From Octopus vulgaris (Eukaryota), in contig OX597825.1 in the NCBI GenBank assembly GCA_951406725.2, positions 68,634,001-68,698,000 of the forward strand: DNA of 64,000 bases, read 5' to 3'. Numbering within the stretch: the first letter of the stretch is position 1; each line of letters opens with the position of its first letter. This document shows positions 37,873 to 40,800 of the stretch, piece by piece. Position numbers: made by a program.

Positions 37873-40800
37873 CATACATATGTATGTGTGGAGGTACGCC
37901 GAACAATTGCTAATCAACAAAACTGTGATGTCAGAAGTGCGAGAGCGTAGGAGGAACCTAGTTTCAATGTGGCTAGAATACAAGAAAGCCTTTGACTCTG
38001 TTCCCCACTCATGGATGCCAGAAACCCTTTAACTTGCTAAAGTTCCAGTGAGAATAGTCAAAGCTATAGCTGACCTGACTTCATCGTGGGCCACCAGCTT
38101 CAAAATTAAACACAAAGAGTGACTGTATTATCACCGATAGAATACAGTATCGCAAAGGCATATTCCAAGGAGACAGCCTCTCTGTGATGCTGTTTATACT
38201 TTCTGTAAATCCCTTGTCATTCATGTTAAGGAAGTTTGCAAGATATCTCACTGGTTCACAAGGTAACAGAAAAACCAAAATTACACAGTTTCTTAAAACT
38301 TTATGCAAAGAATATGCATGAGATGAAAAAGAGCCTTGGCCTAGTTACAACATTCTCAAAGGACGTAGAGTTGGAGTTTGGTCAGGATAAATGCTATATG
38401 GTTGTGAAAAGGGGAATAACTATAAACCAGACTAATAACATCTCCATCGATGATTTGACTGTTTCCCTGTATCTGACGAGGAATGTTACAGGTATCTAGG
38501 GGTGGATGAAAATATAAAGAGTGACTGTATTATCGCCGATAGAATACAGTGTCACAAAGGCATATTCCAAGGAGACAGCCTCTCTGCGATGTTGTTTATA
38601 TTTTCTGTAAACCCCTTGTCATTTATCTTAAAGAAATCTGATGTCATTTATCTTAAGGAAATTCTGATGAAAGAAGCTGCACCTTTGATGCAGCTGCTGG
38701 TGTTAAAGTCACCCCAACATTTGTTAAACTCGTTGCATGGTAAGTTGGTGGTGGAGACTGGAAGTCTACATTCTACATTTATATTCCATACTAGCAGTAT
38801 CACCCGGCGTTGCTCGGGTTTGTAAGGGAAATAACTGCATAAGCATTTTTAGAGAGTTACTAAACCGAGCAAAAATGCATTAAAAATCCGAAAAAAATGA
38901 TGGTAGATTTTTTTTTTAAAATTGTAGACTCATCATAGACGCGCGCTAATACCAAGAAGGGCTCGATATGAATCACGACTATAAGATACCCGGTTTTGGT
39001 TACACTGCACCGCAAAATGTGGGAGTAGTTAGGAATCTAAATCGGAGGAGACAGACTCTCACACACACAACTTCAGTTTTGTATATAAAGATATTTCACA
39101 GGAGTTGACTATTTGGAATCATTCATCTGGTGGGCTCATTAAAATAATTACTCCTAGTATATATACCGTGGTTGGTTCAAATAATGACTACCTCTATTTT
39201 GTTGGCTTTGTATTAAAGTTAACTAAAATATAGAATAGTTTAAAGTAGCTCTGATGAAACTGCTGGAATTAAGCTCAGTTCGAAACTGTTGGAATTAAGC
39301 TCAGTTCAACATTTGCTAAATTTGTCATGATGATTTATGTCCCTTCGTTATGCTAATTTTGTTGCTGTCTTACATGTGTCATTCGTCTTTTCGAATTTGA
39401 AAAACCTAAGTATTGAGATACTGGGGCAATTTAATCAACTACGACTTGTGTTGATTTAAAAAAAAAAAAGGTCTTTTCATTTCACTGTAGCCTGCCTCTG
39501 AACATTTTTGTGACTACGGTATTTACTTGAGTACACTTCTATGTCAAATGCTGAACTTGAAAGATAAAATTTTATCCGTTTTCTTTTTCTACTTCGCATT
39601 CCATCGTTGTATGTTTGAAAAAAGGTAAAATTAATTGAAATTTCAAAAACGATAAAGGAAGAACAGAGCTACAAAAACTCCCCTTAAAATACTCCGATAA
39701 ATATATTTTCGTGTTCATTCAAATAATATTGAAAGGGATTAAAATAAATGGGAAAAAACCTCCAACGAATTTATTTGACAACCCCATAAAATGTAACTTC
39801 CTCTTGTTGCAGCTAAAATCAGTATATTTTATCCTCTTATACAATGCCTTCTTCATTGTGTATCTACAAAATTTGTTCATTATTAACATCAGCGGTTATG
39901 TAAAATTTATGGTTTAAACCGATTCTTTGACGAAAAGAACCACATTTAAATAACAATGCATATAACAACAGGCTACAAATATATTAACAAAACTACCGAT
40001 TGCGGTAGATTGTATTCACTACACATCAGTGTTTCATTGGCCAGAAAATGAAATGCAAACATTGGTTGTTAGAACTCTTAAATATATTAATAATAAAAAT
40101 AAATGCGCCCTTTTAAAGCCTAGCCAGGCCCATGGGCCCAGTTTCCCGGTTTCAATGGCGTATGTGTTCCCCAGCTGGACAGGACGCCAGTTCATCGCAG
40201 CGTTACTCATTTTTGCCAGCTGAGTGGACTGGAGCAACGTGAAATGAAGTGTATTGCTCAAGAACACAACGCGTCGCCCGGTCCAGGAATCGAAACCACA
40301 TTCTTACGATCCACGCGCCTCCACCTTAAATATATTACCTTCTCTTAAATTTCTGTTCTACTCCCTCTATCTAAATCTCCCAATCTTGTTATACTTTAGA
40401 GATTTTGATAAAGAAAAAAGCAGTTATTTCAGTATAAAAATTGTAAAAATGATAGAACTATTGTATGAATTTAGATGTAATTTTGTTGACAGGATGTAAT
40501 GATTGTTGGTGTGCATTGTGAATGTGGTTTTTACAAGGTGTTATATTATTTTCGCCTGCTTAGGTAGGTTGAATGCAGCTGAGGTGAAAAGATGTCATAT
40601 TTTGTTCTCATATTTTCAACACGTCGTCAAATCCTGAGCATCGATTTCCATTCTCCATGCGTTTCTATAACTTGAAAGCTGCACAACTCCCATCAGAGAA
40701 AACCATTCCAAGATATGCCTTCATCTAATCTAGTGATGTAAGATAGATGGCGTTGCCCTATTGATGCACACATCTCGAGGTTTCATCGTTCATCTTGGCA

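What the first reader, a model, noticed from the sequence alone, without database searches (positions are those of the whole stretch)
38663..38745. Orphan GAPDH paralog exon 27.5 kb downstream, in frame and with its splice donor intact
Seen: 77 nt align without gaps to GAPDH 9716-9792 with 15 mismatches, no stop, and the same TG|gtaag donor. This points to a DNA-level duplicate rather than a processed pseudogene. The 9 amino-acid changes are mostly conservative (Q>E, S>C, I>T, S>A, I>V, Q>K, L>V, S>T, T>A), while FDA-AG and PTFVKLV-W are kept. Inference: a tandem GAPDH paralog diverged under selection before being destroyed, or the piece was copied from a second GAPDH locus. I found no other paralog exon by eye.
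Basis: partly seen in the sequence, partly recalled or inferred. Interest (0 to 1): 0.7.

Follow-up and report, generated by a model that had tools for sequence, protein, structure and literature searches.

The report
Decayed GAPDH duplicate piece, now exonized
The "orphan exon" is one of at least five leftover pieces of an old, broken and partly inverted copy of the neighbouring octopus GAPDH gene, and a public gene model splices this piece into a longer alternative GAPDH transcript.

Summary
Window 38663-38739 matches GAPDH 9716-9792 at 62 of 77 bases without gaps, with the same TG|GTAAGT donor.

It is not an orphan. Four more GAPDH-derived relics lie nearby: two exon pieces with intron flanks and one intron piece on the minus strand (36554-36667, 34900-35205, 33548-33616), and a second, more decayed copy of the same exon end at about 39249-39330.

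Two LINE fragments in opposite orientation abut within 6 nt in LINE coordinates. Undoing an inversion of about 33136-38640 restores one LINE and makes the relics collinear with the parent gene.

The relics look neutral: pooled pN/pS is 0.80, GAPDH-invariant residues are replaced, one acceptor is lost, and 5 of 8 exons have no copy. Only copy 1's replacements are unusually conservative (P=0.005).

New here: a public O. vulgaris model (CAI9731263.1) uses 38658-38739 as a cassette exon. Its acceptor comes from LINE-derived junction sequence and its donor is inherited from GAPDH.

Verdict: a decayed, rearranged partial duplicate, secondarily exonized, and probably non-functional.

The parts
38663..38739 (+). 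Copy 1: the GAPDH-derived 77 nt (parent 9716-9792, the 3' end of the penultimate coding exon). The first 6 nt (TCTGAT) are shared with the LINE-derived duplication, i.e. microhomology.
   Evidence: 62/77 identity ungapped. blastn E=3.9e-17. tblastn 66.7% over 24 aa, E=1.3e-7. Junction anatomy.
38740..38745 (+). Inherited 5' splice site GTAAGT, used as the donor in public model CAI9731263.1.
   Evidence: Identical to parent 9793-9798. P0129 residues 409-436 map to 38657-38740 and the next residues map to 59922-60056. Junctions.
38658..38739 (+). e3: an 82-nt cassette exon of the annotated alternative GAPDH isoform, made of 5 nt of LINE-derived sequence plus the 77 nt of copy 1.
   Evidence: 100% tblastn match of P0129 aa 409-436. 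Acceptor ttatcttaag| and donor TG|gtaagt.
38618..38668 (+). Tandem 25/26-nt duplication at the LINE/copy-1 junction. The second unit supplies the e3 acceptor (AG at 38656-38657). This marks the right-hand rearrangement breakpoint.
   Evidence: 24 of 25 aligned bases identical plus one 1-nt indel. LINE similarity ends at 38640.
39249..39440 (+). Copy 2: a second, more decayed copy of the same exon end (core 39286-39325 = parent 9747-9786) with an internal ~24-nt duplication. The donor is lost and the downstream sequence is weakly intron/SINE-like.
   Evidence: blastn 85% over 40 nt. Local score 28 vs shuffles 9.2 +/- 1.5, 0/300 reach it. Downstream part: 2/300 shuffles reach the score.
36554..36667 (-). 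Relic S3: the exon encoding Gp_dh_C 38-70 (parent 8217-8330) with 24 nt of upstream intron. Acceptor CAG->CGG is lost. The last 5 exon nt and the donor are missing.
   Evidence: 79.8% over 114 nt, E=6e-22. tblastn 62% over 29 aa, E=4e-7. Base-by-base view.
34900..35205 (-). Relic S2: the exon encoding Gp_dh_C 70-97 (pseudo-exon 35062-35140) with intron flanks on both sides (parent 8517-8809). The acceptor and the GT of the donor are kept.
   Evidence: 67.3% over 318 nt, E=5.6e-34. tblastn 71% over 38 aa, E=4.8e-13 including flanks. Pfam Gp_dh_C 70-97, E=0.0036, below the gathering score.
33548..33616 (-). Relic S1: an intron piece (parent 8946-9011).
   Evidence: 72.5% over 69 nt, E=3.6e-5. 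Local score 29 vs shuffles 13.3 +/- 1.6, 0/200 reach it.
37889..38640 (+). LINE fragment A (reverse-transcriptase region, frameshifted and with stops): X 38108-38238, Y 38245-38516, X' 38510-38640. It is cut at its 3' side.
   Evidence: tblastn of RVT_1-bearing P0136 aa 120-296, with X' = aa 205-230. X/X' 89-90% identical.
31721..33135 (-). LINE fragment B: begins (Y'') at LINE position 38245-equivalent, i.e. 6 nt after the point where X' ends, and continues into the rest of the element.
   Evidence: 33135-32844 = 38245-38516. P0136 aa 236-443 map to 33130-32505. ORFs 32112-32801 and 31721-32122. Query 32112-32801 hit P0136 at E=5e-29.
33136..38640 (.). Inferred inverted segment, with breakpoints 33135|33136 and 38640-38662. 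It contains S1-S3, e2 and LINE fragment A.
   Evidence: Inference: un-inverting gives one contiguous LINE and puts S3, S2, S1 and copy 1 in parent order and orientation.
9611..9792 (+). Parent exon of copies 1 and 2, in the intact GAPDH gene. Exons seen in the window lie at 1183-1293, ~1756-1845, ~3227-3337, ~5774-5911, 8241-8335, 8574-8652, 9611-9792 and 11048-11120.
   Evidence: Pfam hits in 6 of 147 ORFs scanned. 100% match to O. vulgaris GAPDH P0006.
11048..11115 (+). Last GAPDH coding exon up to the alternative donor GATG|GTTAGT, which removes the normal stop (TAG 11118-11120) in the annotated long isoform.
33413..33472 (+). e2: a 60-nt exon of the annotated long isoform (tttttctag| ... 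CAAG|gtatgt). Single copy in the window.
   Evidence: P0129 aa 390-409 match at 100%. Junctions. Self-BLAST.
59921..60059 (+). e4: the terminal coding exon of the annotated long isoform (atcacag| ... TAG). No protein relatives were found.
   Evidence: P0129 aa 437-481 match at 100%. 9 candidates, none with E<=1. 0 hits with E<=0.001 in 1.84 billion representatives.

Best explanation
Copy 1 is a relic of an old DNA-level partial duplication of the 3' half of the adjacent GAPDH gene (Octopus vulgaris or a near-identical genome). The duplicate originally lay downstream in direct orientation and covered at least parent 8217-9798.

It has since decayed without constraint as a GAPDH sequence. It was filled with SINE and other repeat insertions, and it was broken by an inversion of about 5.5 kb (33136-38640). 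One breakpoint of that inversion split a LINE. The other lies directly upstream of copy 1 and is marked by TCTGAT microhomology and a 25-nt templated duplication. That is why the sister relics S1-S3 now lie on the minus strand and copy 1 looks orphaned. No second GAPDH enzyme is encoded.

Secondarily, the relic became a cassette exon (38658-38739). It kept the GAPDH 5' splice site, and the LINE-derived junction placed an AG acceptor 5 nt upstream. A public, transcript-informed gene model (CAI9731263.1) splices it between two unique exons (33413-33472 and 59921-60059), downstream of an alternative donor that removes the normal GAPDH stop. That adds 93 residues to the protein.

Shown: the relics, their intron flanks, the neutral pattern, the LINE geometry, the canonical splice sites and the match to the public model. 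Inferred: the inversion, the order of events, that the isoform reflects real RNA, and that it is most likely low-level splicing noise from a very highly expressed gene.
For: Relics: searches give five GAPDH-derived pieces. Exon identities are 77.8%, 80.8% and 80.0%.

DNA-level origin from this locus: intron flanks are conserved.

Neutrality: amino-acid differences are 12, 10 and 9 against simulated 12.4, 9.6 and 9.7. pN/pS is 0.87, 1.33 and 0.47, pooled 0.80. P(no stop) for copy 1 is 0.76. Exon identity is no higher than alignable intron identity of 71-88%. Invariant residues are replaced, e.g. S->C where S is 120/120, I->V where I is 120/120, G->F and D->Y where the parent state is 117/117, and A->P twice where A is 115/115. 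The S3 acceptor is lost. 5 of 8 parent exons, including the catalytic-Cys exon, have no copy in the window at E<0.01.

Age: relic S2 keeps T where O. vulgaris, O. sinensis and O. bimaculoides GAPDH have V, while 112 of 117 GAPDHs have T.

Inversion: X' ends at LINE reference position 38238 and fragment B starts at 38245. The same abutment is seen on protein P0136, aa ~230 versus ~236. The minus-strand relics are in parent order.

Junction.

Exonization: P0129 residues 390-481 map at 100% to 33415-33474, 38657-40 and 59922-60056. All junctions are GT-AG and in frame. The annotation paper states that alternative splice forms were added by PASA from Iso-Seq and RNA-seq assemblies (passages read).

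Against a function for the extension: e4 has no homologue. The O. sinensis and O. bimaculoides RefSeq isoforms in the same cluster lack the extension. Pfam sees no second domain in the extension.
Against: Copy 1's nine replacements are more conservative than random mutation gives (mean BLOSUM62 +0.78 vs -0.50 +/- 0.49, P=0.005; total score P=0.02). S3 and S2 are not (P=0.90 and 0.47). This is uncorrected for three pieces and several statistics, but it hints at constraint on the one relic that is exonized.

The annotated reading frame stays open for 92 extra codons. The chance is about 0.01 for all three exons and 0.037 for e2+e4 alone.

After un-inversion, the sequence that would precede copy 1, rc(33136-33547), shows no similarity to the missing 5' 105 nt of the exon (159 of 200 shuffles reach the score). 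A deletion or earlier truncation must therefore be assumed.

A direct repeat (33176-33347 ~ 39580-39743) is not explained by the model. Neither is the presence of two copies of the same exon end with similar 5' limits that are only 72.5% alike.

I saw no reads, so the isoform could be an assembly or merging artefact. No other octopod genome could be examined.
Confidence: 0.8

Rival explanations
1. One reading: a complete tandem GAPDH paralog that was functional, diverged under purifying selection, and was destroyed only later. Copy 1 would be its best-preserved exon.
For: The relics lie in tandem and, after un-inversion, are collinear. Copy 1's replacements are conservative (P=0.005) and its pN/pS is 0.47.
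Against: S3 and S2, which would be from the same duplicate and are of the same divergence, show pN/pS of 0.87 and 1.33 and non-conservative changes at invariant sites. The syn/nonsyn split of copy 1 does not differ from S3+S2 (Fisher p=0.33). The number of replacements in copy 1 equals the neutral expectation. There is no trace of the five other exons in 64 kb. Exons are no better kept than introns.
Confidence: 0.08
2. The piece was copied from a different, second GAPDH locus by ectopic gene conversion or transposition, and not from the neighbouring gene.
For: Copy 1 itself carries no intron sequence beyond GTAAGT, so its own source cannot be read directly.
Against: The sister relics share intron sequence with the neighbouring gene. 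None of the 120 best GAPDHs (of 2345 with E<=1e-10) matches copy 1 better than the neighbour does (best 17/26, shared by 15 proteins). The named Octopus entries in the parent's cluster are isoforms of one locus per species.
Confidence: 0.03
3. A functional new coding exon: octopus GAPDH has recruited a relic of its own duplicate, and the C-terminally extended isoform is maintained by selection.
For: A public transcript-informed model contains it. The splice sites are canonical and the frame is preserved, with 92 open codons. Only the exonized relic shows conservative replacements. The stop lies in the last exon, so by the usual exon-junction rule (recalled) the transcript would not be an NMD target.
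Against: e4 has no relatives and I ran no search with e2. The isoform is absent from the O. sinensis and O. bimaculoides RefSeq isoform sets in the cluster. The acceptor was created by a rearrangement younger than LINE duplicates of JC 0.08-0.12. A 26-residue fragment of the catalytic-domain sheet is unlikely to fold alone (inference). GAPDH is very highly expressed, so rare aberrant splice forms are easily captured (general knowledge).
Confidence: 0.07
4. The exonization is an annotation artefact. e2-e3-e4 would belong to an unrelated low-level transcript or to false spliced alignments that StringTie/TACO/PASA merged with GAPDH, and copy 1 would be only a silent relic.
For: I saw no reads. 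The pipeline merges short-read assemblies (passages). Splice-aware aligners are reported to create false junctions between repeated sequences (EASTR paper PMC10632439; only the search listing and the start of the abstract were seen). Copy 1 is a repeat of a GAPDH exon.
Against: e2 and e4 are single-copy and unrelated to GAPDH, so reads from normal GAPDH mRNA cannot produce them. At 80% identity, GAPDH reads would align better to the true exon. All four junctions are canonical.
Confidence: 0.2
5. Retro-origin: a LINE reverse transcriptase switched template from LINE RNA to unspliced GAPDH pre-mRNA, producing a LINE-exon chimera.
For: Copy 1 directly abuts LINE sequence with TCTGAT microhomology and a small duplication.
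Against: The LINE part next to copy 1 is an internal piece whose continuation lies 5.5 kb away in inverted orientation. Target-primed reverse transcription starts at the LINE 3' end, so a chimera should carry that end (established LINE biology, recalled). The sister relics with introns show a DNA-level duplicate.
Confidence: 0.04

Closest known systems
Unprocessed (duplicated) pseudogenes, i.e. gene relics left by partial segmental duplication
   Same: Exon-intron structure and intron flanks are retained, the copy sits near its parent, exons are missing, a splice site is lost, and the substitution pattern is neutral.
   Different: It is fragmented into at least five short pieces, partly inverted, and one piece is re-used as an exon by the parent gene's own transcript.
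Processed GAPDH pseudogenes of mammals (recalled from general knowledge; no call)
   Same: They are dead GAPDH-derived sequences.
   Different: Those are intronless retrocopies scattered across the genome. Here a splice donor and intron flanks are present and the copy is local.
Exonization of transposable-element or other non-coding sequence, e.g. Alu exonization (recalled)
   Same: A cassette exon arises because chance or inherited splice signals flank non-functional DNA. It is included in a minor isoform, and the acceptor here is LINE-derived.
   Different: The exon body and its donor descend from a coding exon of the same gene and are read in the ancestral frame.
Tandem exon duplication giving mutually exclusive exons (PMC8373072; only the search listing and the start of the abstract were seen)
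   Same: A duplicated exon of a gene appears in an alternative isoform of that gene.
   Different: It is not adjacent to its parent exon, covers only the 3' 42% of it (77 of 182 nt), has a non-homologous acceptor, and is added after the complete protein and does not substitute for the parent exon.
Inversions with breakpoints in repeats and microhomology or templated insertions at junctions, of the alt-EJ or replication-based template-switching kind (recalled)
   Same: A split LINE, a 6-nt microhomology and a 25-nt templated duplication at the junction.
   Different: The mechanism cannot be assigned from one genome. A 402-bp internal LINE duplication also has to be assumed.

Membership tests
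Functional GAPDH paralog (enzyme gene with Gp_dh_N and Gp_dh_C) | All coding exons are present, including the NAD-binding domain and the catalytic-Cys exon. | tested here: not met
   tblastn, exon by exon: 5 of 8 parent exons have no second hit at E<0.01 in 64 kb. Pfam on 96 ORFs from 31-42 kb gave one weak Gp_dh_C hit and no Gp_dh_N.
Functional GAPDH paralog (enzyme gene with Gp_dh_N and Gp_dh_C) | Family-invariant residues are kept and pN/pS is well below 1. | tested here: not met
   Replacements at sites invariant in 115-120 of 120 GAPDHs. Pooled pN/pS is 0.80, and replacement counts equal the neutral simulation.
Processed (retrotransposed) pseudogene | No introns or splice sites; exons are joined as in mRNA. 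| tested here: not met
   The donor GTAAGT is kept in copy 1. Intron flanks lie on both sides of the S2 pseudo-exon and upstream of S3.
Unprocessed duplicated pseudogene | Intron sequence is homologous to the parent locus, and the pieces are collinear with the parent. | tested here: met
   Intron flanks are 71-88% identical. S3, S2 and S1 are in parent order on the minus strand. Collinearity with copy 1 holds only after the inferred un-inversion.
Unprocessed duplicated pseudogene | Disabling lesions are present. | tested here: met
   The S3 acceptor is lost and its 3' end is missing. Copy 1 lacks the 5' 105 nt of its exon. Copy 2 lacks the donor and carries an internal duplication.
Exonized cassette exon of an alternative transcript | Canonical AG...GT borders and a place in a transcript-based gene model. 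| tested here: met
   Acceptor ttatcttaag|GAAAT and donor TG|gtaagt. 100% match to CAI9731263.1 residues 409-436, between e2 and e4. The annotation method is described.
Exonized cassette exon of an alternative transcript | Direct RNA evidence (junction-spanning reads) and the level of inclusion. | not testable with these tools
Tandem-exon-duplication, mutually exclusive exon pair | A full-length duplicate next to its parent exon, with both splice sites homologous and used in its place. | tested here: not met
   Only 77 of 182 nt are copied, the copy lies 27.5 kb past the stop, and the acceptor is LINE-derived.
Inversion that split a LINE | The two inverted element fragments are complementary (they abut in element coordinates), and un-inversion restores the order of the flanking sequence. 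| tested here: met
   X' ends at reference 38238 and fragment B starts at 38245. On P0136 the positions are aa ~230 versus ~236.
Inversion that split a LINE | The ancestral, un-inverted arrangement is seen in a relative. | not testable with these tools

The most novel reading that the evidence does not exclude
The GAPDH gene has recaptured a relic of its own decayed duplicate as a coding exon. A LINE-derived acceptor and the inherited GAPDH donor make an in-frame cassette. The resulting C-terminally extended GAPDH isoform (CAI9731263.1) is a real, translated product under weak purifying selection. This would be an observable case of exon birth from a gene's own pseudogene, in a lineage that already makes N-terminally extended GAPDH isoforms.
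Probability: 0.07. Interest if true: 0.6.

Novelty: new member of a known kind. Interest (0 to 1): 0.3.

Why it matters
On its own this is ordinary genome debris, a decayed partial duplicate of a housekeeping gene. It does not reveal a second cephalopod GAPDH.

It is still useful in three ways.

(1) It is a worked example of how a TE-rich octopus genome shreds and inverts a duplicate within tens of millions of years. A split LINE serves as a built-in marker of the inversion.

(2) It flags a public GAPDH protein model (481 aa) whose last 93 residues come from a pseudogene relic and two orphan exons. Anyone using that model for phylogeny, for qPCR or reference-gene design, or for proteomics should know this.

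(3) If the isoform proves real and conserved, it would be a clean case of a gene re-using a fragment of its own dead copy as a new exon.

Tried and rejected
(a) A possible relic of the 'SAPS' exon at 34171-34203(-) (tblastn E=0.28). At DNA level it is only a 17-nt match, and 5 of 300 shuffles reach its score, so I took it as chance.

(b) A 20-aa tblastn hit of the Gp_dh_C 70-97 exon at 15089-15148 (E=0.015). It lies in a multi-copy repeat whose translation recurs at several sites in the same output, so I set it aside as chance.

(c) Parent-intron similarity downstream of copy 1: none (71 of 100 shuffles reach the score). Upstream of copy 1 or copy 2: none (115/200 and 138/200).

(d) Parent 10069-10160 against 39986-40089 (63%, E=0.27; 1 of 100 shuffles). 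This is too weak to count as a relic.

(e) 36734-36799(+) against parent 6727-6794 (80.9%). The orientation does not fit either arrangement, so I left it as a probable low-copy repeat.

(f) Pfam did not call RVT_1 on any of the 96 short ORFs from 31-42 kb at E<=0.01. The LINE was identified instead through P0136.

I did not pad it.

(h) Shared derived changes between copies 1 and 2: one clear site (C->A making Gln->Lys) and one that depends on the alignment. This is not significant, and the two copies are only 72.5% alike.

(i) Literature: two searches for octopus or cephalopod GAPDH pseudogenes, duplications or isoforms listed nothing relevant. One passage check also found nothing.

(j) I did not fold the 481-aa model. 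The extension has no alignment depth, so low confidence would have been uninformative.
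Full report
**Observation.** The window has no N. An ungapped comparison of 38663-38739 with 9716-9792 gives 62 of 77 identical bases, and the following GTAAGT is identical in both. Similarity stops abruptly on both sides. Within-window blastn gives 83 nt at 81.9%, E=3.9e-17. Both stretches translate without a stop, and 17 of 26 residues are identical.

**The parent gene.** I scanned 147 plus-strand ORFs from the first 12 kb with Pfam. Six carry GAPDH domains: Gp_dh_N in 1180-1293 and 1741-1869, and Gp_dh_C in 5687-5989, 8223-8402, 8551-8694 and 9596-9793.
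- Two further exons, near 3227-3337 and at 11048-11120, were found by motif and confirmed against database proteins.
- The copied stretch is the last 77 nt of the 182-nt penultimate coding exon (9611-9792). Its donor splits a Trp codon TG|G.
- A search with this single exon returned 2345 proteins at E<=1e-10, of which the best 120 were listed. GAPDH of Octopus vulgaris (P0006, CAI9731264.1) is 100% identical.
Every search with window sequence was exon by exon, and the only joined sequences used were public database proteins.

**It is not an orphan.** Comparing the GAPDH locus (1-12000) with the rest of the window, and running tblastn with each exon peptide, shows four more GAPDH-derived pieces.
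- S3, 36554-36667 on the minus strand, matches parent 8217-8330 (79.8% of 114 nt, E=6e-22; 62% of 29 aa).
- S2, 34900-35205 on the minus strand, matches parent 8517-8809 (67.3% of 318 nt, E=5.6e-34; 71% of 38 aa when intron-derived flanks are included).
- S1, 33548-33616 on the minus strand, matches intron 8946-9011 (72.5%; local score 29, reached by 0 of 200 shuffles).
- Copy 2, about 39249-39330 on the plus strand, is a second and more decayed copy of the same exon end as copy 1. Its core 39286-39325 is 85% identical to parent 9747-9786 (score 28, reached by 0 of 300 shuffles). It has an internal duplication of about 24 nt, no donor, and a downstream flank that weakly resembles the parent intron and SINE (2 of 300 shuffles reach the score).
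- S2 has 19 of 19 identical bases upstream of its acceptor. S2 and S3 both carry intron flanks of this locus. The duplication was therefore at the DNA level and came from this gene or its ancestor.
- The other five parent exons, including the one with the catalytic cysteine, have no second copy in the window at E<0.01.

**Selection or decay.** Results by relic:

| Relic | Identity to parent | Amino-acid differences (observed vs simulated) | pN/pS | BLOSUM62 conservativeness, P |
|---|---|---|---|---|
| S3 | 77.8% | 12 vs 12.4 | 0.87 | 0.90 |
| S2 | 80.8% | 10 vs 9.6 | 1.33 | 0.47 |
| Copy 1 | 80.0% | 9 vs 9.7 | 0.47 | 0.005 |

- Pooled pN/pS is 0.80. A stop-free copy 1 is expected 76% of the time.
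- The synonymous/non-synonymous split of copy 1 does not differ from S3+S2 (Fisher p=0.33).
- Exon identity is no higher than alignable intron identity, which is 71-88%.
- Against the 120 GAPDHs, the relics replace residues that never vary: S->C and I->V in copy 1; G->F and D->Y in S2; R->H, two A->P and V->G in S3. No GAPDH is closer to any relic than the neighbouring gene.
- S3 has lost its acceptor (CAG->CGG) and its 3' end.
- One result points the other way. Copy 1's nine replacements are more conservative than random mutation gives (mean BLOSUM62 +0.78 against -0.50 +/- 0.49, P=0.005; whole-peptide score P=0.02). S3 and S2 behave neutrally. This is uncorrected for three pieces and several statistics. 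I treat it as a hint, not as evidence of selection.

**Why the pieces are scattered.** Copy 1 lies directly 3' of a decayed reverse-transcriptase (LINE) fragment on the plus strand.
- That fragment reads X (38108-38238), Y (38245-38516), then X' (38510-38640), a second copy of X.
- A second LINE fragment on the minus strand starts at 33135 with a copy of Y (33135-32844) and continues into the rest of the element.
- X' ends at LINE reference position 38238 and the minus-strand fragment begins at 38245, so they abut within 6 nt.
- The same is seen on an RVT_1-bearing protein, P0136. X' covers residues 205-230 and the minus-strand fragment starts at residue 236.
- The simplest reading is one LINE with an internal 402-bp duplication that was split by an inversion of about 33136-38640.
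- Undoing the inversion restores the LINE. It also places S3, S2, S1 and copy 1 on one strand in the order and orientation of the parent gene. That arrangement is a tandem, direct, partial duplicate.
- The right-hand junction carries a 25/26-nt tandem duplication (38618-38642 and 38643-38668). It also shows a TCTGAT microhomology between LINE-derived and GAPDH-derived sequence.
- Three things remain unexplained. The 5' 105 nt of the exon are missing at the reconstructed junction. There is a two-copy direct repeat, 33176-33347 ~ 39580-39743. Copies 1 and 2 have an unclear relation, since they are only 72.5% alike.

**Rough timing (inference).** I used the calibration quoted in PMC13282606 (passages read: JC 0.09 ~ 25 My and JC 0.2 ~ 56 My; O. 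vulgaris and O. bimaculoides split 13.3-33.5 My ago).
- The relic exons (JC 0.22-0.26) and introns (JC 0.13-0.37) put the duplication at tens of millions of years.
- The LINE duplicates (JC 0.08-0.12) put the inversion at no more than roughly 11-16 My.
- Independently, S2 keeps Thr where the GAPDH of O. vulgaris, O. sinensis and O. bimaculoides has Val. Argonauta and 112 of 117 GAPDHs have Thr. The duplication therefore predates the common ancestor of these Octopus species.

**The unexpected part.** The 90% cluster of the parent protein holds a second O. vulgaris model, CAI9731263.1 (P0129, 481 aa).
- Its extra residues map at 100% to 33415-33474, 38657-38740 and 59922-60056 on the plus strand.
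- In the window the model reads as follows:

| Step | Coordinates | Junction |
|---|---|---|
| Last GAPDH exon, alternative donor | ends at 11115 | GATG\|GTTAGT, which removes the normal stop at 11118-11120 |
| e2 | 33413-33472 | ctag\| ... AAG\|gtatgt |
| e3 | 38658-38739 | ttaag\| ... TG\|gtaagt |
| e4 | 59921-60059 | acag\| ... TAG |

- All junctions are canonical and in frame.
- e3 is copy 1 plus five LINE-derived bases. Its acceptor lies in the junction duplication, and its donor is the inherited GAPDH donor.
- The annotation paper states that alternative splice forms were added by two rounds of PASA updates from Iso-Seq and RNA-seq assemblies (PMC10700109, methods passages read). A real transcript is therefore likely, but I saw no reads.
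- Several results argue against a function. e4 has no homologue (9 candidates, none with E<=1; 0 hits in 1.84 billion representatives). e2 and e4 are single-copy. The RefSeq isoforms X1-X3 of O. sinensis and O. bimaculoides lack the extension. Pfam sees nothing in the extension.
- One result keeps a function open. The frame stays open for 92 codons, with a chance of about 0.01 overall and 0.037 for e2+e4.
- An artefact of transcript merging or false spliced alignment cannot be excluded (EASTR paper, search listing only).

**Comparison and novelty.** This is an unprocessed, fragmentary pseudogene of the neighbouring gene. It fails the tests for a functional paralog, a processed pseudogene and a tandem-exon-duplication pair. 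It meets those I could run for a duplicated pseudogene, for an exonized cassette and for a LINE-splitting inversion. Two literature searches and one passage check found nothing on octopus GAPDH duplicates or such an isoform. The exon is already present, uninterpreted, in a public annotation. I rate it a new member of a known kind, of modest interest.

**Left unchecked.**
- The copy-1 peptide was too short for a direct database search.
- Only the best 120 of 2345 GAPDH hits were visible.
- I did not open the supplements or annotation files of the genome paper.

Noticed in passing
P0006, P0124-P0127, P0010, P0011, P0014 (database proteins); the exons would lie upstream of window position 1: Octopus and other cephalopod-like GAPDH models carry a ~55-residue N-terminal extension (389-391 aa isoforms) alongside ~335-aa isoforms. 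This recalls, from memory, the N-terminally extended sperm GAPDH of mammals. The first coding exons are not in the window.
   Followed up: no
6954-7336 (+) and 41332-41714 (-): A 384-nt stretch of a GAPDH intron is 96.9% identical to a minus-strand stretch 34 kb away. Weaker relatives lie at 40231-40329 and 6462-6584. It is probably a young low-copy transposable element.
   Followed up: no
33176-33347 (+) and 39580-39743 (+): A two-copy direct repeat (score 68 against a shuffle maximum of 19, ~72% identity). One copy lies 41 nt from the left inversion breakpoint and the other ~250 nt downstream of copy 2. The inversion model does not explain it.
   Followed up: partly
38770-38915 (+), 433-572 (+), 46948-46990 (-): The sequence 25 nt downstream of copy 1 is 80% identical to a stretch of the GAPDH intron upstream of the 1183-1293 exon, and 91-97% identical over 36-43 nt to a third site. 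It is a low-copy repeat and not part of the collinear duplicate.
   Followed up: partly
35062-35140 (-): The S2 pseudo-exon keeps both a TTTTCAG acceptor and a GT donor on the minus strand. It is in no gene model that I saw.
   Followed up: no
5932-6168, 9179-9436, 9815-9993, 36879-37111, 40983-41251 and others: A SINE-like repeat of ~230 nt occurs about 12-17 times in the window, three times inside GAPDH introns. One copy starts 22 nt after the donor of the parent exon.
   Followed up: partly
18882-19571 (-) and 20039-20593 (-): Two long ORFs (230 and 185 aa) whose translation looks like another reverse transcriptase (an ...LLFADDVKL... motif, recognised from memory). This would be a retroelement separate from the split LINE.
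   Followed up: no
30186-30343, 31332-31440, 32000-32050: Short, very similar local duplicates (94-98%) lie around the 3' end of LINE fragment B, one of them inverted.
   Followed up: no
60303-61124 (+): A 274-codon open frame made of a tandem repeat (…PRRDAATLPRR…) lies just downstream of exon e4.
   Followed up: no
23443-23868 (+) and 25065-25529 (+): ORFs of 142 and 155 aa look, from memory, like pieces of a DNA-transposon transposase (a helix-turn-helix-like N-terminus). They were not scanned.
   Followed up: no
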